Below, piece after piece: positions 1 through 15,180 of a stretch of DNA of 64,000 nucleotides. The DNA is from Escherichia coli. Lineage in GTDB: Bacteria > Pseudomonadota > Gammaproteobacteria > Enterobacterales > Enterobacteriaceae. Both the position numbers and the translations under genes were made by a program. Each line of letters opens with the position of its first letter. Position 1 is the stretch's first letter. The stretch lies in the NCBI RefSeq assembly GCF_044324875.1, contig NZ_CP172185.1, one strand, 5' to 3'. A model generated the notes under the pieces. It was not told the DNA's origin, did no database searches, and worked only from the letters and a program-made list of their open reading frames with translations.

Positions 1-768
1 GATGGCTATCTGTGCCACGCTGGCATTCCTTTCGGCTCCCATTTTTTTCATGGCGGCGGTTAGTCTTTCTATCTGCGGCAGTACTGCGTTATAACTTTCG
101 GCCCGGCCACTCCCGGCAGGCATGGGATGATTTGAATCATAACGACCACTGAGCGCGCCTTGCTCCAGGACCATGTAAGCAAAGAACGTGATGTTATTTT
201 GTCGGCAATAATCAAGGATCCCGGCCTCTTCAGAAGCGCGATAGAGCAGGCTGTAGTGATTTTGTACTGCACTGAGGGAATAACCGGAAGCGTTAAGGAT
301 TTCATTGGCGCGTCTGATTTGTGCCAGATTGTGGTTGGAAACACCTACGCGTTTTACCTTACCGCTTTGTAAAAGTGGGATCAATCCTGGCGTCCATTTT
401 TCGACGTCGAGGGGATTATGGATCCAGTAGATATCAATCGCGTCCACGCCCAAGCGCCCAAGGCTGGCCTCAAGCATATCGCTGACAGGCTGCGCAGACT
501 GCTTGTCCGCAATCTGCGGCGTGAATTTGGTGGATAAAATTATGTTCTCGCGAGGAAACTGACGGACTAATGCTCCCAGCGCAGTCTCGGAACTCCCCAT
601 ACCATATACTGCTGCGGTATCCCAGAGATTGAGGCCCTTACTCATGGCCGCAGTGAACACTTCTGCCATCTGAGTATCAGAAAGATGATTACCAAAGACG
701 GTGTCGCCGCCGGCAAAGCCTGTGCCCCAGGACCATGTACCTAGTGCGACTGGAGGTAGTGTTTTCAT
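1..768 (-). CDS. Aldo-keto reductase family oxidoreductase, 3' end beyond window edge
   Basis: Hand translation of the minus strand from ATG at 768 gives MKTLPPVALGTWSWGTGFAGGDTVFGNHLSDTQMAEVFTAAMSKGLNLWDTAAVYGMGSSETALG... open to position 1 (about 256 codons, no stop). AGGAG ribosome-binding site upstream. Absent from ORF track because it is truncated by the window edge. Confidence 0.75.
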   Translation of the reverse strand, partial: MKTLPPVALGTWSWGTGFAGGDTVFGNHLSDTQMAEVFTAAMSKGLNLWDTAAVYGMGSSETALGALVRQFPRENIILSTKFTPQIADKQSAQPVSDMLEASLGRLGVDAIDIYWIHNPLDVEKWTPGLIPLLQSGKVKRVGVSNHNLAQIRRANEILNASGYSLSAVQNHYSLLYRASEEAGILDYCRQNNITFFAYMVLEQGALSGRYDSNHPMPAGSGRAESYNAVLPQIERLTAAMKKMGAERNASVAQIAI

Positions 769-829
769 ATTCAGCTCCTGAAAAAAGGCCGGATCGTGGC
801 TGACTTAAACCGGCCAAGTAAGGAATTAA

Positions 830-1519
830 TTAAGCTGTCCGGCGGAGTGCATTTAACAGCGCCACACCAACCCCATGTGCTGAAGCGGGATTCTGCCCCG
901 TGATAAGGCGATCGTCGGTAACCACGTTTTCAGACCAGTTTGGAGCTTCATGATAAAGCGCACCATGCTCGCGAAGTGCGGTTTCAAGCAGGAAGGGAAC
1001 CACATCTGTTGTGTGAACTTCTTCCTCTTCCTTGTTGGTAAAGGCCGCCACATTTTTCCCTTTTATCAGGTATTCGCCGCTACTGAGTTTTGCGTCAACC
1101 AATGCCGCAGGCCCGTGGCAGACGGCTGAGACAATCCCATCACTTTCATACACTTCGCGGATAATACGCTGGGCATCCTGATTATCACGGAAATCCCACA
1201 TGGTCCCATGACCACCTGCAAAGAAAACTGCGCTGTAATCGGCACCTTTCAGCTCGGATAACGCAGGTGTTGTTGCCAGGCGCTGCTGAAAATCGGTTTC
1301 GTTCCAGTACCAGGCGTTAACAGGGTCGCTGAGGTTAAATCCATCCACCGGTGGCTGCCCCCCGCGAATACTGGCTATTGTTGTTTTTATTCCGGCATCT
1401 TCCAGTACTTTCAGCGGATGAGTCAGCTCGGCCAGGAAAAAACCGGTTGGTACACCGGATGCGCCTTTAATCGGATGGCTGGAAACGACACATAGCACTG
1501 GTTTATATGCAGGTTTCAT
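830..1519 (-). CDS. DJ-1/PfpI superfamily protein (class I glutamine amidotransferase-like; putative amidase/glyoxalase/hydratase)
   Basis: ORF 830..1531; start moved to ATG at 1519 (MKPAYKPV...) which has a GAGGA ribosome-binding site. Contains the nucleophile-elbow motif AVCHGP typical of DJ-1/PfpI proteins; ~229 aa. Confidence 0.75.
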   Translation of the reverse strand: MKPAYKPVLCVVSSHPIKGASGVPTGFFLAELTHPLKVLEDAGIKTTIASIRGGQPPVDGFNLSDPVNAWYWNETDFQQRLATTPALSELKGADYSAVFFAGGHGTMWDFRDNQDAQRIIREVYESDGIVSAVCHGPAALVDAKLSSGEYLIKGKNVAAFTNKEEEEVHTTDVVPFLLETALREHGALYHEAPNWSENVVTDDRLITGQNPASAHGVGVALLNALRRTA

Positions 1520-1527
1520 ATCGGTCC

Positions 1528-1839
1528 TCACTCTTTATTTTTAAATTCATCGGCGAAGAGATTTTCCCAGTTAATAAAGGAGCCAAGCGGTATACACTCG
1601 AAGCTTAGTAAGCCTGCTTTTGCCAACGGGAATTCGGCCATAACGTTCATCGCTTCATCGACAGAGTCACATTCAAGAAAAATAGCGACGCCAGGTCTGT
1701 CCTGACGGAAGTAGATGTCGCGGATGAAGCCTGATTTATACAATCCCCAGGCGTGCAGAGCTTCAGCGTTGAGGTGCGGAGCATATTTCTCCAGCGATGC
1801 TACAGGGGCAGGGATATCCAGACATAAAATTCGCATCAT
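1528..1839 (-). CDS. Small conserved protein of unknown function, first gene of the operon
   Basis: 103-aa ORF with AGGAG ribosome-binding site; its stop overlaps the alternative GTG start of the DJ-1 ORF (GTGA). Family assignment not possible by eye. Confidence 0.55.
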   Translation of the reverse strand: MMRILCLDIPAPVASLEKYAPHLNAEALHAWGLYKSGFIRDIYFRQDRPGVAIFLECDSVDEAMNVMAEFPLAKAGLLSFECIPLGSFINWENLFADEFKNKE

Positions 1840-1975
1840 AGTCTCCTGAACTCAGGTCGTAGTAGAAAGAGACTAAAGTATAAGAGGCGTATTTCAGGAA
1901 GATTAGAGGGTCATTGACTTAAGCATTTTTAGACTGTACTTAATAATCAGGCGAGAATTGCTTTAGGAAAACATT

Positions 1976-2875
1976 ATGAATAACGCTCTTTATAACCAGA
2001 TTCGCATCTTCCAGAGCATTGCGCGGGAGGGCAATATTTCGGCAGCCGCAAGGAAACTGGAAATTACGCCTCCCTCCGTCAGCAATGCACTAAAGCTGCT
2101 GGAAGAGTATATCGGTCATCCGCTTTTTGTGCGTACGACCCGCCGTATAGAGCTGACGGAAACCGGTCAATTATTGCTGGAACAGACCGCTGCGGCGGTG
2201 GAGTCGCTGGAAAACTCACTTGAAAGCATTCGCGACCAGCATCAGGAGCCCTCAGGGATGGTGCGAATTACGCTCTCGCGTTTTGCCTACCTGTTAATTC
2301 TTAAGCCTGCGATGGCAGAATTCTGTCAGCAATATCCGGGTATACAGTTAGAAATTTCGGTCTACGACGGTACCGTGAATATCATCAAAGAGCGTTTTGA
2401 TCTGGGGATCCGTTTTGGCGATATTCTTGAGGGAGGGGTGGTGGCCCGACCGTTAATGAAACCGTTTCGTGAAGGATTATATGCATCCTCAGCGTATCTC
2501 TCCCGACATGGAACGCCTGAAGTGCCGGCAGATCTCTGTCATCACCAGCTGATTGGTTACCGTTTTATCACCAACAACCGCATCCTTCCGCTGCTCCTGA
2601 ACGATCGCGGTGAGCAGTTGACCGTTGAGATGCCGGGGCAGTTAATCAGCAACGATATTGACGTTATGGCAGACGGGATCCGTAACGGGCTGGGAATTGG
2701 GCGCTTGTTTGAGCCTGTCTGGCAGTTACAGCCGGACAGGGAGCGCTTTATTCCGGTGATGGAGAGCTACTGGAAAACCTACCCGCCAGTGTATCTCTAT
2801 TACCCCAAAAACGCGGGTAAAACGAAAAGAGTGAAGGCCCTGATTGATTTTCTGATATCCACTACGGGGCGATAA
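1976..2875 (+). CDS. LysR-family transcriptional regulator, divergent from the small-protein/DJ-1/AKR operon
   Basis: 299 aa; N-terminal helix-turn-helix region (IFQSIAREGNISAAARKLEITPPSVSNALKLLEEYIGHPLF) and LysR-type co-inducer domain; divergent arrangement typical of LysR regulators. Confidence 0.85.
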   Translation: MNNALYNQIRIFQSIAREGNISAAARKLEITPPSVSNALKLLEEYIGHPLFVRTTRRIELTETGQLLLEQTAAAVESLENSLESIRDQHQEPSGMVRITLSRFAYLLILKPAMAEFCQQYPGIQLEISVYDGTVNIIKERFDLGIRFGDILEGGVVARPLMKPFREGLYASSAYLSRHGTPEVPADLCHHQLIGYRFITNNRILPLLLNDRGEQLTVEMPGQLISNDIDVMADGIRNGLGIGRLFEPVWQLQPDRERFIPVMESYWKTYPPVYLYYPKNAGKTKRVKALIDFLISTTGR

Positions 2876-3166
2876 AGACGATAACGCCTCGTTCGGTATG
2901 GAGATGCATCGAATGGCATTGTGAGTTTTTTTTCACAGATGGGCGTAATCGTCAGTGGATTTTACATACAAGGATAGCGCCCACATACTGACATCATTAA
3001 TTAACGTTGGGTGAGGTTTACCGGGGGGAGGGGAAAGCGAACCAGGAGATGGAGGTGGCCAATCTGGTACGAACCGCCGCGTAGCTTGCACGGCAAAAGC
3101 TGCTGACTGATTCATCAGTTAAGCTACTGAAAGAGCGGAACACATGAACTTAAGAACAAACCCACC

Positions 3167-3197
<31 letters not shown>

Positions 3198-3273
3198 ATA
3201 TAAACCAAGGGAGAATCCAGTCGTTGGCGGTCATGATTGTCCTGCTCATTAACAACGACCAAAACCCCATATC

Positions 3274-4458
3274 TTACTTAATACCGTATTCTCGGCTTAA
3301 CCGGCCGTGCAACCTCAACACATTGGTTTCAACTGCCGTCACCACGTTCTCCGGAAAATCTGTCGGTAATGAAGTCTTCACGTTATCCAGTGCTGCCGGA
3401 ATCATTCTGGCAAAGTCACTCAGGATTTCATGCATCTGCACTTCCGGAAATTTCAGCAACTTTGCTGTCGCCAGAAAATGTCGCGGATAAATTTTATCGA
3501 TTGCCGTTTTTTTGCCTTTGGATGCGTTAAGCCCCATTGCCAGTTTGAACCACTGGAACACCTGAAACTTCATAAAATCATAGCGATCTTTCAGCGCCTC
3601 GCTGGACCCCATCAAAAAAGCCATGATCCGCGCGATGCCTGGGCCTCCATCTGATTCATATTTCACCGATGAAGTTAAACCGAATGTCTGACACATATCC
3701 TCCTGTGGCAAGCGAAGTAAAACCGTTCGCTCAGCATTCCAACGCCTGTCAAAACGTTCGACCGCTAACGCGCGCACATTCCCCGCTTTAATGATTTCTG
3801 CGTCCGGCACATTCAACCCAAGTTCTTTCGCCAGCAGCAGACAGTAATACTCATTATCAACGCTTTGGCTGAGATCGAGCGTCGCATTGGGCTGCCTGAT
3901 TTCGCCAATCGGTAATTTAATGATGTGCGTCGTCGGCGTTATTCCTTTCGGAATGCACCAGTCATTGCCTATTCTGAGCAGCGCTGTCTTCTCCTGCGCG
4001 CCAGCAACCGAGATGCGAAAGTCATTTTCTTCTCTAATCATGCCCAGAGGGATATCTGCTTTATAAGCCGTTAATACTTCTTCAAGTCTGGCTTCAGTAA
4101 GCTTTTCCCATGCCATTATCGGATGCGTTACGGTTTCGTCTTCGGGTATTAACGTCACGGCACCAACGCTGTCTCGCCCTATTTCTGACAATAAATCAAA
4201 CGGTTGTCTGGATTTGGCATGATAACGTTTAACGATCCGGTCACGTACAATCGGGCTATCGGGTAACAGATTATCGAAGAAGTTAAATACGGCATCAGAG
4301 GTGATATTCCCCCTCTGCAATGGCAGCGAAAGTGACAACGGTCTGGCATAACGGCTGGCTAACCACTCCGGTGCATACTTAAAGGTGTGCGCGCCGTTGG
4401 CTAACTTCGTTAACTCGCCTACCCGCTGGTTGTTCATCCAAGTGACAAGTTTAGGCAT
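3274..4458 (-). CDS. hipA: HipA serine/threonine kinase toxin homolog with in-frame internal deletion of ~46 residues (catalytic core missing)
   Basis: N-terminus MPKLVTWMNNQRVGELTKLANGAHTFKYAPEWLASRYARPL and C-terminus LRLHGRLSREYG.K match HipA. Product is 394 aa versus 440 aa for K-12 HipA. At the junction ...KFQVFQW-FK-LAMGLNASKGKK the segment recalled as LIGATDGHAKNFSVF...GIHISDL is absent. Start reassigned from ORF-track 4515 to ATG at 4458. Confidence 0.85.
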   Translation of the reverse strand: MPKLVTWMNNQRVGELTKLANGAHTFKYAPEWLASRYARPLSLSLPLQRGNITSDAVFNFFDNLLPDSPIVRDRIVKRYHAKSRQPFDLLSEIGRDSVGAVTLIPEDETVTHPIMAWEKLTEARLEEVLTAYKADIPLGMIREENDFRISVAGAQEKTALLRIGNDWCIPKGITPTTHIIKLPIGEIRQPNATLDLSQSVDNEYYCLLLAKELGLNVPDAEIIKAGNVRALAVERFDRRWNAERTVLLRLPQEDMCQTFGLTSSVKYESDGGPGIARIMAFLMGSSEALKDRYDFMKFQVFQWFKLAMGLNASKGKKTAIDKIYPRHFLATAKLLKFPEVQMHEILSDFARMIPAALDNVKTSLPTDFPENVVTAVETNVLRLHGRLSREYGIK

Positions 4459-4907: not shown

Positions 4908-7900
4908 TTACCAGCTATATTTCACTCCCAGCATGCCCTGAGTATCGCTATAGCCTTTATCACCTAGTTGCACACCGACATTCCCCCACAGGCTAAGGTT
5001 GTTATTTACTTTCGCCTCAACCCCGGTACGTACTTCACCGAGATTACGCGCACCATCACGGCTTACGGTTTGACCATTCATCTTCACTGCGTAGACTTTG
5101 CTGTTGTTGATCCAGTTCGCTTCAATGTAAGGCTGGAACTCACGCTGTTTACCATCGTCACGCTGGTGATGGCTGTTCAGGTAGGTTTTCACCCCAAGTC
5201 GCGTTTGCACGTTTCCGTCGCCTTCCGTTTCAATGCGTGTTCCGTCTTTCCGGGTATGGTCAGAATCTTTCACACCCATCCAGGTGATTTGTACCTGTGG
5301 CTGGACGTACCAGGTATTCAGCGTCCCTTCGCTGCCGCTAAAAGTTCCCGCTTCAAAGGTATACCCACCCTCAACAGAGGCCGTCACACCGCGAGAATCA
5401 TAGTCGTCAGCAGAACGGTTATCGGAACTGACGCTGTTATCAAACCAGTTATACAGCGCCCAGCTGTCAACATAAGCGCCGGTCTTATTCGCATCGTTCT
5501 GATACCAGGTCGCGTACAGTCCTGCGCTGTAACCGCTGATGCGCCCATCCGATTTATAACCCACACGATTACTCTGAGTATTACTGTGCTGATTGGCGTA
5601 GCCTGCCATCACGCCAAGATGCCAGCGATCCTGCGCGTTGCTACTCCACTGCGCCAAATCGCCTCCTAGCTGCAATACATAGCGGTTAGCCTGAGTATTT
5701 AGCTGGCCGTCACCGGTCCTGAAACGTTCGTGCCCCCCGACATGACGCATCCACATACTGCTTGCCGAACCCTGAGAATGCAGTGAATCTGTATACTGCG
5801 GCTCACCCAGACGGTCGTGTAAGCGATGGCTAAACAGCGAGTTGGCTGCGGCAATGTTGCTGATATAGCTTCCGGCCTCCGGGCGATAAACTGATGGGCC
5901 TTCCGGATCCACAACAGGGGGATTATTGATGGGATCGGGTGTATCCGGTGGCGTTACGCCTTCCCATTTACTGGTCAGATACCAGTTTTTCTCGTCATTC
6001 CCCTTCCCTTTAGCCAGCGTGTAGACGTAAGCCCCAGCTTCGACAGTTCCGGTGGTCAGCGCGAAGTTACCTGCAGAATTACCGCCAACCTCAATGAGTT
6101 CAATACCGTTGACCGTTTGTGCACCGACGCCGCCAATGTTATCAACCCGAACGCGAGTGTTCCCTTGGGTATCGCCTTTCACGTTCATCTTATCGGTGGG
6201 CGAATTATCGCCGCCCAGCGTCGCGTTGAACGTCATCAGGCCATTGTTTCCATTATAGTTACCGTTAACGGTCAGTACATTCCCCGGTTTCCCCCCTTCG
6301 CTGTTCATTTGAACCGTGCCACCATTCTCCAGGTTACCGCCGACAGTGGTTTTAGCGACACGCAGTGTCCCCCCTGGCATAACGTTCACATCACCTGCAG
6401 TGGTGACATTTCCCGACATCACACCGCTGTTATGGATATTAATGTGCTGACTTGCCATATTAATGGCAGAGTCGGAACCGAAAGCAATTTCACCACCCAC
6501 GATATCCGTCGTACCCTGATACGCCGCGGAATCGTTGTTAAGAGTCAGGATCCCGGTACCCAGTTTTGTCACATCACCGCTACCGCTGATACTGTGCGTC
6601 ATCGCCCAGCTACGCTCAGTGGAGATGGTGAGCAGGCCATTATTGATAACGGAAGCATCACCCAGGTTTTTCTGATCGTTGACGCTGAGCGCGCTGCCTG
6701 TATCAATGTTGAATTGCCCCACAAAGCGGCTATTATCGCCATCCAGCTCTACATCTGTCCTGGCGGTTGCGCTCACGATACCCTTCCCGCTTATGCTATT
6801 ACGCAGTTCTCCAGTCACGTTTTTTAGCGTTAACAGACCGTCATTGGCAATATTTCCTCTGCCTAACCCCTGCGTATTATCGAGGCTGACTTCCGCATTT
6901 GGGCTAATGCTGGTTAACGCATTGTAGCGTGCATTAAGCCCCTCGATAGCCAGTGTTCCCCCTGTAACATTCAGGTTTCCGCCACCTGTCAGTTCACCCT
7001 GACTGATCCCACCTTTATTTACCGTGAGCGCCCCCTCTTTGAACAAAACAGTCGAACCCATCTGCCCGGTGAATGTCTCTACCGTCTGCGTCGATCCATT
7101 AAGATCGACGATGGCCGCGTTGCTGATGTTCAGTTCCCGGGTGTTGCCAAGTGCACCATCCGCATCGGTACGTAATGTCCCCATCTGAACGTAGGTTGCC
7201 CCCTGATAGTCGTTCTGACCGTTGGAAAGCGAAACCTGTCGTACCGTATTGATTGCCAGATCCCCTTCACCACCGATTTTTGCCGACATATCGGCTGTTG
7301 CGCCATAGGCTCCGCCATGTTCGGCTAACGTCAGCTTTTGCCCACCATGGATGTTCAGCGCTTTCAGCCCATAGTTAACGTACAAACCATCACCTGGTGC
7401 GGTCGTGAGGCGGAATCCATAATCACCCTCGGCGACCACTGTTCCGTTTTGTGCAATGTGTAACTTTTTGTCCGCTTCCACCGCGTCGCCCTGTAAATCA
7501 CGTAACGTTAATGAGCCACCCGATCCAATAACCGTTTGCGCCTTCACCAGTTGAACGCCGACATGGCTATCATCGTGTTCCAGCAAATTGAGCGTCGTCA
7601 GAGGGTTATTCGCCATGGGATCATTCCACGGTTTAGGCACGTCGATAAGCACGTCGCCCATCCCGTTTACCTGATAGTTACGGCCTTTCCAGGTGTAGTC
7701 ACCCGTGCCGACAACCAGCGTATCGACGCTGATATATCCCTCCGCAAGCGTCGCAGCAGGTATATCCGTATCGAAAGTGAGCGTACCGCCATTCATGGCT
7801 AGTCCACCAATGGATTGCTCTCCCACTTTTACCGATGTGGTATTTTCACTGTCAGACTGAAGCATCGCGTGAGTAAGCGCAGCGGTGTTGTCGCGTTCCA

Positions 7901-9723
7901 GTGTGAAGGTACTGTCTTTCAGTTGGGCAACACCGGCGAATTCAGTTCCTGTTGCATGGGTAAAGCCAAACATTTTGTCGGAGGATGACAGCTGCACTCG
8001 CATCAAGCCATCGCCTTTGAGCGCATTGGTCAGCGTGTAATCTCCTGCACTGTTCGTTGATGCGAGAATGTCGAGCGTACCGGGGCTTGCAATGGTTACT
8101 TCACTCGAACCCATGCCTGTTACCCCATCTGCCGTATGTGACGCAATAGTCAGGAGGCCGTCATTGACCAGCGTTTTACCACTATAAGTATTCCCTGCAT
8201 TGAACACCGTATGGCCTGCATCATGCATCACTTTTCCGTCTTTATCGTCACCCGTAATCAGCATATCGACCTGGTAGCCGGCATCACTGTTATTAGTATG
8301 ATTAAAGACAAAAACGCCTTCGCCAAGACCAAACTCCACTTTCGTCGCATTGGTGATAAACCCGGCATCTGCCGCCGCCTCACCGTGAGCAGCACCAATG
8401 TTTAGCGTTCCTACAGCAGGTTCAAAAACACCTAAGTAAACTTCTCCACCTTCGACATTCAACGTGCCGTTATTCGTCAGGGTTAACGTACCCGTGCCTG
8501 TCGTCCCTACGTTCATATTGAATGTTTCAAGAAGAGAGTTCTGCCCATCCACCCGCACGTCGCCCTTACTTTTGTCATTGAGAGCTATTTGTGTATCACG
8601 CGCTTTAACTATACCTCCGGTGGTAATATTCAGTTCACCCGTGCCTAATACACCGACCTGTAGCAATTGGGCGTTAGTAGATGACGTTTTTAAATTCCAG
8701 AGACTATCCGTTGAAATATTAACTATCCCCTTACCGGAGGCATTTCCTCCGATAAATCCATAGCCCGTTGAATTAAGAGTGGCACCATTACTGACATTTA
8801 CGATGCCGCTACCAAAATTACCGACATTGATACCTACAGTATCGAACGATGATGTCGCATCCATCAGGTTCAGTGTGCCGATACCGCTTGCTTTATCGCC
8901 CAAAAAAGTAATATTTTGCGATACGAACTTACCGCCATCGCTGATATTGAGGTTTCCGACACCCGCAACACCAATGGTGGTATAGACATTCTTATTGACC
9001 TCCCACATCCCCCCCGTGGTGATGCTGACATTCCCGACGCCGGTTTCTCCATAACCGAGTGAGCTTCCTCCGTTGCTGACAACAAGCCCCTCATTACTGA
9101 TATTCATTTCGCCGTGGCCGTCATAACCAAGATTAGTTCCGAGATTAGTGATAACGGAGTTCTTATCCTTAATAGTAATGTTGCCTGTGCCTGTTTCTTT
9201 CATCCCCGCAGTGATAATTCCCGAATCTACTTTTCCTTCACTCGAGACATTAAGTTCACCGTCGCCAGCATCACCGATATAGATATAGCGGAAAGCTTCG
9301 CCCGTTCCGAGGAAATTCCAATGCCCTTTATCGGTCACGTTGACGACACCGTGGGACCCGTCCTGAACGCCCACAAATGAATATTCTTTGTTATTAATCA
9401 GTCCATTATTGGAAATATTGACTTTGCCATTACCGAAATATCCATTATAGAGTCTGCGTACCGTGATAACAGAGTCTTGATCCTGCACATTCAGGGTTCC
9501 GATACCGGTGGCATTGCCACCGATAATCGTATTTTCAGCCGTAATCAGCCCCCCCTCGCGAATAGTCGCTTCCCCCGTGCCTTGATTGCCAATTTGAAAT
9601 TCAATTGAGGAATCATTATTTTTTATTAGCCACTCGCCACCCTTTTCAACGACAACCTTACCATTGCTGTTCGCCTGATATCCTACAATGGCGACGATTG
9701 AACTCGTGACGTAACCCTTATCC
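4908..9723 (-). pseudogene. yneO: Autotransporter adhesin (YdeK/YneO-like) truncated at its 5' end by IS1; no signal peptide
   Basis: 1609-aa ORF whose first 5 codons lie inside the IS1 end (TTG start at 9737). Gly/Asn/Thr-rich repetitive passenger and a C-terminal beta-barrel ending ...GMLGVKYSW. N-terminus MAASPDKGYVTSS... has no signal peptide. Symbol given by synteny (between hipB and lsrK). Confidence 0.8.
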
Positions 9724-9778
9724 GGTGATGCTGCCAACTTACTGATTTAGTGTATGATGGTGTTTTTGAGGTGCTCCA

Positions 9779-10054
9779 GTGGCTTCTGTTTCTATCAGCT
9801 GTCCCTCCTGTTCAGCTACTGACGGGGTGGTGCGTAACGGCAAAAGCACCGCCGGACATCAGCGCTATCTCTGCTCTCACTGCCGTAAAACATGGCAACT
9901 GCAGTTCACTTACACCGCTTCTCAACCCGGTACGCACCAGAAAATCATTGATATGGCCATGAATGGCGTTGGATGCCGGGCAACTGCCCGCATTATGGGC
10001 GTTGGCCTCAACACGATTTTACGTCACTTAAAAAACTCAGGCCGCAGTCGGTAA
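9779..10054 (+). CDS. insA: IS1 InsA
   Basis: 91 aa [51 protein letters not shown]... Confidence 0.95.
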
Positions 10055-10476
10055 CCTCGCGCATACAGCCGGGCAGTGACGTCATCGTCTGCGCGGAAAT
10101 GGACGAACAGTGGGGCTATGTCGGGGCTAAATCGCGCCAGCGCTGGCTGTTTTACGCGTATGACAGGCTCCGGAAGACGGTTGTTGCGCACGTATTCGGT
10201 GAACGCACTATGGCGACGCTGGGGCGTCTTATGAGCCTGCTGTCACCCTTTGACGTGGTGATATGGATGACGGATGGCTGGCCACTGTATGAATCCCGCC
10301 TGAAGGGAAAGCTGCACGTAATCAGCAAGCGATATACGCAGCGAATTGAGCGGCATAACCTGAATCTGAGGCAGCACCTGGCACGGCTGGGACGGAAGTC
10401 GCTGTCGTTCTCAAAATCGGTGGAGCTGCATGACAAAGTCATCGGGCATTATCTGAACATAAAACACTATCAATAA
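9973..10476 (+). CDS. insB: IS1 InsB (transposase made as InsAB' by -1 frameshift)
   Basis: 167-aa ORF overlapping insA in the -1 frame; the A-run frameshift site TTAAAAAACTC lies in the overlap. Confidence 0.9.
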
Positions 10477-13644: not shown

Positions 13645-15180
13645 ATGCAAACGAGTGATACCCGCGCGTTACCGCTACTTTGCGCCCGCTCGGTTTATAA
13701 ACAGTATTCAGGGGTTAATGTCCTGAAAGGCATCGATTTTACGTTGCACCAGGGGGAGGTCCACGCCCTGCTCGGCGGCAATGGTGCCGGTAAATCGACG
13801 TTAATGAAGATTATTGCCGGTATTACCCCTGCTGATAGCGGTACGCTTGAGATTGGGGGCAACAACTACACCAGATTAACGCCAGTTCATGCTCATCAGC
13901 TGGGCATTTATCTCGTTCCCCAGGAACCGCTGCTTTTTCCAAGCCTGTCGATAAAAGAAAACATCCTGTTTGGTCTGGCAAAAAAACAACTCTCCATACA
14001 GAAAATGAATAACTTGCTGGTGGCGCTGGGCTGCCAGTTTGATCTGCATAGTCTGGCAGGATCGCTGGATGTCGCCGATCGCCAAATGGTGGAAATCCTC
14101 CGTGGGCTGATGCGCGACTCGCAGATTCTGATCCTCGATGAACCTACCGCCTCGCTTACCCCTGCGGAAACCGAACGCTTGTTTAGTCGCTTGCGGGAGC
14201 TGCTTGCTACTGGCGTGGGTATTGTTTTTATCTCGCATAAGCTGCCGGAAATTCGCCAGATTGCCGATCGGATTAGCGTGATGCGCGACGGAACTATCGC
14301 CTTAAGCGGCAAAACCATCGAACTGTCTACCGACGACATTATTCAGGCCATCACGCCAGCGTTACGGGAAAAATCGCTCTCTGCCAGCCAAAAATTATGG
14401 CTGGAGTTACCTGGCAACCGCCCACAACATGCCGCCGGAACGCCGGTGCTGACACTGGAAAACCTGACCGGCGAAGGTTTTATGAATGTCAGCCTGACGC
14501 TTAATGCCGGAGAAATTCTGGGGCTGGCTGGGCTGGTGGGGGCCGGACGCACAGAACTGGCCGAGACGCTCTATGGTCTGCGTACTTTGCGTGGCGGACG
14601 CATTATGCTGAATGGTAAAGAGATCAATAAATTATCCACTGGAGAACGTTTACTGCGCGGTCTGGTTTATCTGCCGGAAGATCGCCAGTCATCCGGACTG
14701 AATCTCGATGCTTCGCTGGCCTGGAATGTCTGCGCCCTTACTCATAACCTTCGTGGATTCTGGGCGAAAACCGCGAAAGATAACGCCACACTGGAACGTT
14801 ATCGTCGGGCGCTGAATATTAAATTTAACCAACCGGAACAAGCTGCGCGGACCTTATCCGGCGGCAACCAGCAAAAAATCCTGATTGCCAAATGTCTGGA
14901 AGCCTCGCCGCAAGTATTGATTGTCGATGAGCCGACGCGCGGCGTGGATGTCTCAGCCCGTAATGATATCTACCAGCTGTTGCGCAGCATCGCCGCACAG
15001 AATGTGGCAGTGCTGCTTATCTCCTCTGATCTGGAAGAGATCGAACTGATGGCAGATCGCGTATATGTGATGCATCAGGGCGAAATTGCCCACTCTGCAC
15101 TGACCGGACGCGATATTAATGTCGAGACCATTATGTGCGTTGCCTTCGGCGATAGTCAGCGTCAGGAGGCGTCATGCTGA
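13645..15180 (+). CDS. lsrA: AI-2 ABC transporter ATP-binding protein (two ATPase domains)
   Basis: 511 aa; Walker A motifs GGNGAGKST and GLVGAGRTE, signature LSGGNQQK. Confidence 0.95.

What the first reader, a model, noticed from the sequence alone, without database searches (positions are those of the whole stretch)
1..2875. LysR-regulated three-gene operon (small protein – DJ-1/PfpI – aldo-keto reductase) adjacent to hipA, not at this locus in K-12
Three tightly coupled minus-strand genes (overlap GTGA between genes 1 and 2; strong ribosome-binding sites) are divergently paired with a LysR regulator. A Cys-containing DJ-1/PfpI enzyme next to an NAD(P)H-dependent aldo-keto reductase suggests a two-step detoxification of a reactive carbonyl or electrophile (for example glyoxal-like or isonitrile-like compounds), with the 103-aa protein as an accessory component. 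By my recollection K-12 has ydeS/ydeT/yneL fimbrial and AraC pseudogenes on this side of hipA, so this is strain-variable content whose inducer and substrate are unknown.
Basis: inference. Interest (0 to 1): 0.6.

Follow-up and report, generated by a model that had tools for sequence, protein, structure and literature searches.

The report
LysR-controlled quinone/electrophile detoxification gene island
The genes are real, but they are the window-truncated end of a roughly 7.8 kb accessory redox/detoxification operon carried by about 8% of E. coli, and its most conserved gene is an uncharacterised small protein of the muconolactone-isomerase/YciI type, not the DJ-1 or aldo-keto reductase genes.

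Summary
The gene layout is confirmed. On the minus strand lie an aldo-keto reductase (AKR, cut by base 1), an Hsp31-type DJ-1 protein and a 102-aa protein ("P99"). A LysR-type regulator is divergent from them. K-12 lacks all of it.

"Three-gene operon" is a window-edge artefact. In near-identical genomes the operon continues through a broken amidohydrolase, a KefF-like quinone reductase, a second AKR, and periplasmic double-ABM and double-CMD proteins. This 7,762-bp island sits between yneL and hipA in about 445 of 5,426 complete E. coli genomes.

P99 is the signature gene, not an accessory. It has no Pfam, NCBIfam or PDB sequence match. Its confident model resembles ClcF, YciI and TftG. Databases label it "superoxide dismutase" with no support I could trace.

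Across 80 species, P99 has:
- a divergent LysR in 77
- a flavin quinone reductase in 60
- DJ-1 in 51
- a hydroxybenzoate-decarboxylase-like amidohydrolase in 39
- the AKR ortholog in only 10

The best reading is a LysR-activated module for quinone or phenolic electrophile detoxification, partly decayed in E. coli. The substrate is unknown. I found no literature on it. Interest is moderate.

The parts
1..768 (-). Aldo-keto reductase AKR1. The window holds codons 1-256 of 315; the gene runs off the window start.
   Evidence: Translation. The full 315-aa CDS is WP_000854797 in strain C4. The best PDB match is IolS, 1pyf, E 4e-32, with D50/Y55/K81/H117 aligned to the AKR tetrad region. It scores below the cut-off for every NCBIfam equivalog; YdjG methylglyoxal reductase scores 117 against a cut-off of 550.
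830..1519 (-). Hsp31/Glx3-type DJ-1/PfpI protein, 229 aa. An alternative GTG start at 1531 would overlap the upstream stop codon.
   Evidence: Pfam PF01965, E 2.9e-15. PDB matches: 4p5p E 1.5e-48, 1u9c, yeast Hsp31 1qvv E 4e-29, Candida Glx3 4lru E 1.3e-27. C134/H135/E165 align with yeast Hsp31 C138/H139/E170.
1528..1836 (-). P99: a 102-aa protein of an uncharacterised family in the muconolactone-isomerase/YCII clan. It is the signature gene of the module.
1837..1975 (.). Divergent control region.
   Evidence: Alignment of 12 Enterobacterales intergenic regions (A2) gives these conserved elements:
- a conserved 34-bp block at 1914-1947 containing a TTAAG-N15-CTTAA dyad
- CTAATC at 1901-1906
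- an invariant TATACT (-10-like) at 1877-1882
- an SD GGAGA at 1842-1846
The simple sigma-70 consensus scan found no strong promoter here, as expected for an activator-dependent promoter. Assigning these elements to LysR binding is inference.
1976..2875 (+). LysR-type transcriptional regulator, 299 aa, divergent from P99.
   Evidence: NCBIfam LysR-type hits; the best is YafC at 163 bits, below its 470 cut-off. PDB LysR-type regulators 3mz1 and 3hhg. A divergent LysR gene lies upstream of P99 in 77 of 80 species loci.
2876..3168 (.). Non-coding right end of the island. The flanking 7-bp direct-repeat copy ATTTAAC is at 3169-3175.
   Evidence: K-12 homology resumes at window ~3166-3169. ATTTAAC flanks both island ends in C4 (L001 7400-7406 and 15169-15175) and occurs once in K-12. 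No tRNA or Rfam feature was found.

Best explanation
The finding is the regulator-proximal end of a roughly 7.8 kb accessory operon. A LysR-type activator probably switches it on in response to a quinone, hydroquinone or phenolic electrophile, and the operon detoxifies that compound.

Proposed steps, all inferred:
1. FMN quinone reductases (KefF-like in enterics, WrbA-like elsewhere) reduce the quinone by two electrons.
2. P99, a cofactor-independent enzyme of the muconolactone-isomerase/YciI/TftG type, probably a dimer, carries out a proton-shift (tautomerisation, isomerisation or elimination) on the resulting cyclic enol or enone.
3. The Cys-His-Glu DJ-1 enzyme and, where it is intact, the hydroxybenzoate-decarboxylase-like amidohydrolase process the product or remove adducts.
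4. The AKRs reduce the carbonyl products that are released.
5. The periplasmic ABM and CMD proteins act on the same class of compound outside the cytoplasm.

The E. coli copy is a partly decayed version. Its amidohydrolase is broken, and DUF1330 and a second flavoprotein are deleted. It is related to versions found in plant- and soil-associated Enterobacterales and on an Enterobacter mori plasmid.

Shown: gene content, fold, synteny, purifying selection and distribution. Inferred: inducer, substrate, reaction order and single-transcript status.
For: Co-conservation in 80 species:
- divergent LysR in 77
- WrbA-like or Flavodoxin_2 reductase on the same strand in 60
- DJ-1 in 51
- Amidohydro_2 in 39
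- only 4 loci have neither a reductase nor DJ-1

Other support:
- The WrbA-like assignment rests, and the KefF-like assignment.
- P99's fold is closest to ClcF, YciI and TftG, with a weak direct profile hit to TftG. Distant relatives hit Pfam MIase and YCII.
- A 50%-identical relative keeps the order P99, DJ-1, Amidohydro_2, ABM. Beside it lies a LysR, Flavodoxin_2, YCII unit.
- The amidohydrolase is closest to LigW and to gamma-resorcylate, 2,3-dihydroxybenzoate and salicylate decarboxylases.
- The DJ-1 catalytic triad is intact.
- dN/dS is 0.04-0.19.
- The intergenic region carries a conserved footprint.
- A plasmid-borne copy exists.

From established knowledge, not tested here: KefF, MdaB and WrbA are quinone reductases; MdaB and YgiN (an ABM protein) form a quinone redox cycle in E. 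coli; TftG dehydrochlorinates a hydroxyhydroquinone; dienelactone-hydrolase-type MhqD belongs to the Firmicute quinone regulons.
Against: - There is no experimental datum for any gene of the module, and I found no literature on it.
- All the enzyme families involved are broad. None of the proteins reaches an NCBIfam equivalog cut-off.
- P99's catalytic residues could not be mapped onto those of TftG or muconolactone isomerase.
- In E. coli the amidohydrolase, a core member elsewhere, is a pseudogene, so the E. coli pathway may be incomplete or repurposed.
- The promoter scan found no consensus promoter.
- Operon status rests on spacing only.
- The plant and soil bias of the carrier taxa fits a catabolic role equally well.
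Confidence: 0.5

Rival explanations
1. This is the first reader's model: a two-step detoxification of reactive carbonyls. DJ-1 acts as glyoxalase III on glyoxal or methylglyoxal, the AKR reduces the dicarbonyl or aldehyde, and the small protein is an accessory.
For: The DJ-1 protein belongs to the Hsp31/Glx3 clade, whose characterised members are glyoxalase III enzymes, and it has an intact Cys-His-Glu triad. The best NCBIfam hit of both AKRs is the YdjG methylglyoxal reductase. The genes are adjacent and tightly spaced.
Against: - The AKR scores are far below the cut-off (117 and 124 against 550).
- The AKR1 ortholog accompanies P99 in only 10 of 80 species.
- This model does not explain the consistently linked quinone reductases, the decarboxylase-like amidohydrolase, or the ABM and CMD proteins.
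- P99 is the most constrained gene, not an accessory.
Confidence: 0.2
2. The module is a peripheral catabolic or funnelling pathway for a plant-derived phenolic acid or an unsaturated lactone. It would proceed by decarboxylation, isomerisation, hydrolysis and reduction, and would serve nutrition rather than defence.
For: Several of the families have members in aromatic or lactone catabolism:
- the amidohydrolase resembles hydroxybenzoate decarboxylases
- the P99 fold is that of muconolactone isomerase and ClcF
- CMD (carboxymuconolactone-decarboxylase family) and dienelactone-hydrolase neighbours occur
LysR-type regulators typically control aromatic pathways. The carriers are mostly soil and plant bacteria.
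Against: - None of the inspected loci carries a ring-cleavage dioxygenase, a CoA-transferase or thiolase, or a dedicated transporter.
- Gene content is modular and variable, which is typical of stress regulons.
- Half of the E. coli proteins are periplasmic ABM and CMD proteins.
- The E. coli copy has lost the decarboxylase.
Confidence: 0.15
3. P99 is a new kind of superoxide dismutase, as the database name says, and the operon is an oxidative-stress or redox-cycling defence.
For: PGAP and TrEMBL call many family members 'superoxide dismutase'. The association with quinone reductases would fit protection against semiquinone-derived superoxide. Nearly invariant Cys5, His28 and several acidic residues could in principle bind a metal.
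Against: - There is no match to any Pfam family at E<=10, so none to the Fe/Mn, Cu/Zn or Ni superoxide dismutase families.
- No NCBIfam superoxide dismutase model hits, even at E<=10. The weak hits are to YciI-like and muconolactone isomerase models.
- The same sequences are named 'hypothetical protein' in other records.
- No paper was found.
- The fold is that of cofactor-free isomerases.
- Across the wider family only E55 is invariant.
Confidence: 0.05
4. In E. coli the island is a decaying remnant with no current function.
For: - The amidohydrolase has a 354-bp deletion and a frameshift. A further 952 bp, carrying DUF1330 and a second flavoprotein, are deleted relative to Rahnella. The amidohydrolase lesion is also present in a second E. 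coli strain, U1.
- Some genomes carry truncated LysR genes or partial islands.
- 92% of complete genomes lack the island.
Against: - Seven genes remain intact, with dN/dS of 0.04-0.19 against Rahnella.
- 488 of 491 carriers keep the region at >=99% identity, with the four window genes annotated as intact.
- The control-region footprint is conserved.
Confidence: 0.1

Closest known systems
TftG (5-chloro-2-hydroxyhydroquinone dehydrochlorinase, YCII family), ClcF and muconolactone isomerase
   Different: Structure-aligned sequence identity is only 15-19%. P99 itself is below every Pfam and NCBIfam threshold. The His-Asp dyad of YciI and the catalytic residues of muconolactone isomerase were not mapped. 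No dioxygenase or maleylacetate reductase pathway lies nearby.
Yeast Hsp31, Candida Glx3 and E. coli HchA (glutathione-independent glyoxalase III, DJ-1 superfamily)
   Same: The window DJ-1 protein is about 230 aa, has the same 'short Hsp31' architecture, and has its Cys-His-Glu triad aligned residue for residue.
   Different: It is not an HchA ortholog (67 bits against a 365 cut-off). It always sits downstream of P99 under a LysR gene. Its activity is untested.
MdaB-YgiN quinone redox cycle, KefF and WrbA of E. coli K-12
   Same: A flavin NAD(P)H:quinone reductase is paired with a small dimeric alpha+beta-barrel protein. The island itself encodes a KefF-like reductase and ABM ('quinol monooxygenase'-type) domains.
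Quinone and electrophile stress regulons (B. subtilis and S. aureus MhqR, YodB and QsrR; E. coli YhaJ, NemR and YqhC)
   Same: The logic matches: one regulator controls a modular set of quinone reductases, carboxylesterase or dienelactone-hydrolase-type hydrolases, and aldehyde reductases. YhaJ is a LysR-type regulator that senses hydroquinones. This comparison is from my own knowledge and was not tested here.
   Different: The regulators are not orthologous; the best NCBIfam hit is YafC, below its cut-off. The P99, DJ-1 and Amidohydro_2 core is not part of any of those regulons.

Membership tests
DJ-1/PfpI superfamily, Hsp31/Glx3 class | PF01965 domain match | tested here: met
   E 2.9e-15 over residues 27-220.
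DJ-1/PfpI superfamily, Hsp31/Glx3 class | Nucleophile Cys followed by His, plus an acidic third residue (Cys-His-Glu triad) | tested here: met
   C134, H135 and E165 align with yeast Hsp31 C138, H139 and E170.
DJ-1/PfpI superfamily, Hsp31/Glx3 class | Glyoxalase III activity (methylglyoxal to lactate without glutathione) | not testable with these tools
   Needs an enzyme assay. It is not an HchA equivalog (67 bits against a 365 cut-off).
Isonitrile hydratase (InhA) clade of DJ-1 | Closest relatives are isonitrile hydratases | tested here: not met
   The 58 PDB sequence matches are of the Hsp31, Glx3, HchA, PfpI and DJ-1 types. None is named isonitrile hydratase.
Aldo-keto reductase superfamily | Catalytic tetrad Asp-Tyr-Lys-His in the (alpha/beta)8 barrel | tested here: met
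   D50, Y55, K81 and H117 lie in the motifs WDTA, AVYG, STKF and WIHNP, aligned to IolS 1pyf. Orthologs carry PF00248.
Aldo-keto reductase superfamily | Membership of a named equivalog (YdjG, DkgA/B, YghZ or Tas) | tested here: not met
   All scores are far below the curated cut-offs.
LysR-type transcriptional regulator with a divergent target operon | N-terminal HTH_1 domain plus a LysR substrate-binding domain, about 300 aa | tested here: met
   There are 58 NCBIfam LysR-type hits covering residues 6-295. Orthologs carry PF00126 and PF03466.
LysR-type transcriptional regulator with a divergent target operon | Divergent orientation conserved across taxa | tested here: met
   77 of 80 loci.
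LysR-type transcriptional regulator with a divergent target operon | T-N11-A-type dyad binding site in the intergenic region, and regulator-dependent transcription | tested here: inconclusive
   A conserved 34-bp block contains a TTAAG-N15-CTTAA dyad. The spacing is not the classic T-N11-A, and binding was not tested.
Muconolactone isomerase / YCII clan (dimeric alpha+beta barrel) | Ferredoxin-like beta-alpha-beta-beta-alpha-beta fold of about 100 aa | tested here: met
Muconolactone isomerase / YCII clan (dimeric alpha+beta barrel) | Significant match to PF02426 (MIase) or PF03795 (YCII) | tested here: not met
   P99 has no Pfam hit at E<=10. Among 53 relatives with 29-50% identity, 25 hit MIase and 10 hit YCII at E<=0.001. 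P99 is therefore a divergent sister group of the clan, not a member of either Pfam family as defined.
Muconolactone isomerase / YCII clan (dimeric alpha+beta barrel) | Family catalytic residues (YciI His-Asp dyad; the muconolactone isomerase active site) | not tested
   No residue-level structural superposition was available. The family-wide conserved residues are E25, W30, R39, D46 and E55.
Superoxide dismutases (Fe/Mn, Cu/Zn, Ni) | Sequence match to a known superoxide dismutase family | tested here: not met
   No Pfam hit at E<=10. No NCBIfam superoxide dismutase model hits at E<=10. No PDB superoxide dismutase hit.
Mobile genomic island | Integrase or transposase, a tRNA or att site, or compositional deviation | tested here: not met
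   There are no mobility genes in the island in C4 and no tRNA. GC content is about 0.47-0.53, similar to the hipA-side flank and higher than the fimbrial/yneL flank at about 0.39-0.43. Only a 7-bp direct repeat flanks it. Near-identical clusters in other genera and on a plasmid still indicate horizontal spread.

The most novel reading that the evidence does not exclude
P99 founds a widespread, unrecognised enzyme family: 1,440 clusters at 50% identity, with cytoplasmic, secreted and tandem-fused forms. It branches between muconolactone isomerase and YciI. It would catalyse a cofactor-free proton-shift on hydroquinone- or quinone-derived intermediates. Together with a quinone reductase, an Hsp31-type DJ-1 protein and a hydroxybenzoate-decarboxylase-like amidohydrolase, it would form a previously undescribed LysR-controlled pathway for quinone or phenolic detoxification. 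That pathway would be conserved from Enterobacterales to rhizobia, Burkholderia, Pseudomonas and myxobacteria. The current 'superoxide dismutase' annotation of thousands of database entries would then be wrong.
Probability: 0.35. Interest if true: 0.6.

Novelty: new variant of a known kind. Interest (0 to 1): 0.4.

Why it matters
- It corrects the unit of analysis. The conserved module is LysR, a quinone reductase, P99, DJ-1 and an amidohydrolase. It is not the small protein, DJ-1 and AKR.
- It flags a large protein family that carries a probably unfounded 'superoxide dismutase' name in public databases and has no Pfam or NCBIfam model.
- It gives bacterial Hsp31-type DJ-1 proteins, whose physiological substrates are debated, a conserved genomic context that can be tested directly.
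- For E. coli it defines a lineage-restricted, partly decayed accessory locus beside hipBA. The locus could affect tolerance to dietary or plant quinones and phenolics.
- It is not a new kind of system. It fits the familiar pattern of regulator-controlled, modular electrophile-stress operons.

Tried and rejected
- **Literature.** Seven full-text searches found nothing on this module. They used gene-family combinations, RefSeq accessions, the SOD/YciI/MIase link, and WrbA with DJ-1 and LysR.
- **Direct family assignment of P99.** Pfam, NCBIfam and PDB sequence searches were all negative. Only the fold and transitive homology worked.
- **Origin of the 'superoxide dismutase' name.** I could not trace it. 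It is not an NCBIfam HMM.
- **Internal terminator between DJ-1 and AKR1.** The hairpin GGCCGG...CCGGCC followed by a T-run folds no better than shuffled sequence (z -1.17). Rejected.
- **Sigma-70 promoter scan of the intergenic region.** Nothing above chance.
- **RNA elements and tRNA at the island end.** None found.
- **Mobile-element explanation.** There are no mobility genes. Homology to other genera stops at the coding limits, so the 7-bp repeat and short imperfect terminal inverted repeats may be E. coli-specific or chance.
- **Fusion ('Rosetta stone') evidence linking P99 to DJ-1 or to reductases.** Only tandem P99-P99 fusions and signal-peptide forms were found.
- **Model strains.** E. 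coli 042 lacks the island. The UMN026 record was not available.
- **Isonitrile hydratase idea.** Rejected on DJ-1 subfamily grounds.


Full report
**Observation**

ORF listing and sequence reading confirm three co-directional minus-strand genes and a divergent regulator:
- an aldo-keto reductase (AKR) whose first 256 codons occupy 1..768 and which runs off the window start
- a DJ-1/PfpI gene at 830..1519
- a small gene at 1528..1836
- a divergent LysR-type gene at 1976..2875

AGGAG or GAGG motifs lie 6 nt before each ATG. RefSeq and the orthologs use the ATG at 1519, which leaves an 8-nt spacer. The Serratia orthologs overlap by 4 nt, so tight coupling is real either way. All homologs of the small protein begin MRILCLD or MK-LCLD. 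The second ATG (1836) is therefore the likely start, giving 102 aa. I call this protein P99.

**Real extent of the locus**

A megablast of window 1-3270 found 443 of 5,426 complete E. coli genomes that cover at least 80% of it, the best at 99.9% identity. Using only island-specific DNA (1-3150), 491 genomes match, 445 of them over at least 80% of the query and 488 at >=99% identity.

In strain C4 the same strand continues to the left of the window with:
- the rest of the AKR (315 aa)
- three fragments of an amidohydrolase
- a 190-aa Flavodoxin_2 NAD(P)H oxidoreductase (best hit KefF, 149 bits, below its cut-off)
- a second AKR (339 aa)
- a 241-aa double-ABM protein with a signal peptide
- a 267-aa double-CMD (carboxymuconolactone-decarboxylase family) protein with a signal peptide
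- the yneL AraC-type fragment and the yde fimbrial genes

K-12 has yneL and then hipA directly. Alignment places the indel at L001 7407-15168, which is 7,762 bp. It is flanked by a 7-bp direct repeat, ATTTAAC, present once in K-12. The right-hand copy is at window 3169-3175. So 'three-gene operon' is an artefact of the window edge.

**The proteins in the window**

- *DJ-1.* It matches PF01965. Its closest solved relatives are 4p5p, 1u9c, yeast Hsp31 and Candida Glx3. C134, H135 and E165 align with the yeast Hsp31 triad C138, H139 and E170. It is not an HchA ortholog, and no isonitrile hydratase is among its matches.
- *AKR.* It aligns best with IolS, with D50, Y55, K81 and H117 in the tetrad motifs. 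It is far below every named equivalog cut-off.
- *Regulator.* It is a generic LysR-type regulator. The best hit is YafC, below its cut-off.
- *P99.* It has no Pfam hit even at E<=10, no NCBIfam hit and no meaningful PDB sequence hit.

**What P99 is**

Homologs are abundant and strongly conserved. Identity is 60-70% in Alpha-, Beta- and Gammaproteobacteria and in a myxobacterium. A profile search of 1.84 billion representatives found 1,440 clusters at E<=1e-3.

Among 53 relatives with 29-50% identity, 25 match Pfam MIase and 10 match YCII at E<=0.001. P99 therefore belongs to a divergent branch of the muconolactone-isomerase/YCII clan. Tandem-duplicated and signal-peptide forms exist. The duplicated forms fit a dimeric barrel. 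Family-wide conserved residues are E25, W30, R39, D46 and E55.

PGAP and TrEMBL name many members 'superoxide dismutase' and others 'hypothetical protein'. I found no model, structure or paper behind that name.

**Genomic context across species**

A scan of one genome per species returned 80 loci. tblastn with the island proteins gave these counts:

| Neighbour of P99 | Loci out of 80 |
|---|---|
| Divergent LysR gene within 2.2 kb upstream | 77 |
| WrbA-like or Flavodoxin_2 quinone reductase, same strand | 60 |
| DJ-1 downstream, same strand | 51 |
| Amidohydro_2 | 39 |
| Any AKR | 26 |
| AKR1 ortholog | 10 |
| Neither a reductase nor DJ-1 | 4 (two of these are short contigs) |

The WrbA-like assignment rests.

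The usual non-enteric arrangement is a divergent LysR gene, then a WrbA-like gene, P99, DJ-1 and Amidohydro_2, sometimes with a dienelactone-hydrolase-type gene. A 50%-identical relative keeps the order P99, DJ-1, Amidohydro_2, ABM and lies next to a LysR, Flavodoxin_2, YCII unit.

The intact amidohydrolase is closest to 3nur, to LigW, and to gamma-resorcylate, 2,3-dihydroxybenzoate and salicylate decarboxylases.

It is not met for LysR, P99 and DJ-1. The AKR, however, is peripheral.

**Regulation**

Aligning the intergenic regions of 12 Enterobacterales shows:
- a conserved 34-bp block (window 1914-1947) with a TTAAG-N15-CTTAA dyad
- a conserved CTAATC (1901-1906)
- an invariant TATACT (1877-1882)
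- the Shine-Dalgarno sequence

A plain consensus scan finds no strong sigma-70 promoter. That pattern fits an activator-dependent promoter, but binding is inferred. A hairpin between DJ-1 and the AKR is no better than shuffled sequence.

**Evolution**

The E. coli cluster is about 91% identical at the DNA level to one in Rahnella rivi, and 84-90% identical to those in Pantoea, Rouxiella, Raoultella and Pectobacterium. Homology ends at the coding limits. A 213-kb Enterobacter mori plasmid carries an expanded version at 90% identity.

Relative to Rahnella, E. coli has a 354-bp deletion and a frameshift in the amidohydrolase. It also has a 952-bp deletion that removes DUF1330 and a second flavoprotein. 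The amidohydrolase lesion is seen in a second strain.

The remaining genes show dN/dS of 0.04 (P99) to 0.19. GC content is unremarkable. No mobility genes, tRNA or Rfam elements are present.

**Interpretation**

The most economical reading is a LysR-activated, modular detoxification operon aimed at quinone, hydroquinone or phenolic electrophiles. Quinone reductases would provide two-electron reduction. P99 would provide a cofactor-free proton-shift step of the TftG or muconolactone-isomerase kind. The DJ-1 and amidohydrolase enzymes would process products or adducts. The AKRs would reduce released carbonyls. This rests on family chemistry and synteny, not on experiment, and I put it at about 0.5.

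The rivals are:
- a peripheral catabolic route, about 0.15
- decay without function in E. coli, about 0.1
- a true superoxide dismutase, about 0.05

**Verdict**

It is wrong on the unit and on which gene matters.

The locus is an ordinary kind of system, a regulator-controlled redox and detoxification island. It has one feature that is open: a large, misnamed, uncharacterised small-protein family with a well-conserved partnership. Interest is moderate.

Noticed in passing
window 3274-4458, junction at ~3548: hipA carries an in-frame 138-bp (46-codon) deletion relative to K-12 and strain C4. The product reads ...FQVFQW|KLAMGLN.... From my recollection of the K-12 HipA sequence, the lost segment LIGATDGHAKNF...HISDL holds the catalytic-loop residues, so the kinase is probably dead. 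A 57-bp query spanning the junction matched none of 5,426 complete genomes. The 12 best-ranked matches listed for a 201-bp junction query all align in two pieces spanning 339 bp. The deletion may be strain-specific or an assembly artefact.
   Followed up: partly
window 4908-10328: The AidA/ECSE_1600-family autotransporter downstream of hipB (yneO, a pseudogene in K-12) gives an ORF of only 1,609 aa ending at 9737. The C4 ortholog is 1,806 aa. This suggests an internal stop or frameshift near 9740 in this strain.
   Followed up: no
window 3169-3175 and L001 7400-7406 / 15169-15175: The 7,762-bp island is flanked by a 7-bp direct repeat, ATTTAAC, with a single copy in K-12. By eye, the island termini are also imperfect inverted repeats over about 12 bp (..ATTCTGGGTTTG / CAAACCCACCAT..). 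This could be a target-site duplication or a microhomology deletion scar. No mobility gene is present.
   Followed up: partly
L001 11042-11733 and 9284 (left of the window): In E. coli the amidohydrolase is a pseudogene, with a 354-bp deletion and a frameshift. This gene is a core member of the module in other species. A further 952 bp carrying DUF1330 and a signal-peptide Flavodoxin_2 gene are missing relative to Rahnella rivi.
   Followed up: yes
window 1528-1836 and database homologs: Thousands of database entries of this family are named 'superoxide dismutase' by PGAP and TrEMBL, while identical or near-identical sequences elsewhere are 'hypothetical protein'. No superoxide dismutase family, HMM, structure or paper supports the name.
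   Followed up: partly
L001 7638-9182; L009 13962-14972: The double-ABM, double-CMD and DUF1330 proteins and one Flavodoxin_2-like protein of the cluster carry N-terminal signal-peptide-like sequences. Part of the module is therefore predicted to work in the periplasm. This is unusual for ABM 'quinol monooxygenase'-type and flavodoxin-like proteins.
   Followed up: no
L089 (Enterobacter mori plasmid pHS08-091, NZ_CP071064.1): A 213-kb plasmid carries an expanded version of the cluster at about 90% DNA identity. It has an added alkene reductase, a second LysR gene, three more AKRs and an SMP-30 lactonase.
   Followed up: partly
L001 2206-6535 vs L002 (K-12): Strain C4 (and 042) keep an intact usher, chaperone and fimA in the yde fimbrial operon. 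K-12 has a deletion there that leaves the truncated ydeT. The yneL end-points also differ between strains. The whole yde-yneL-hipA interval is therefore a hotspot of deletions.
   Followed up: no
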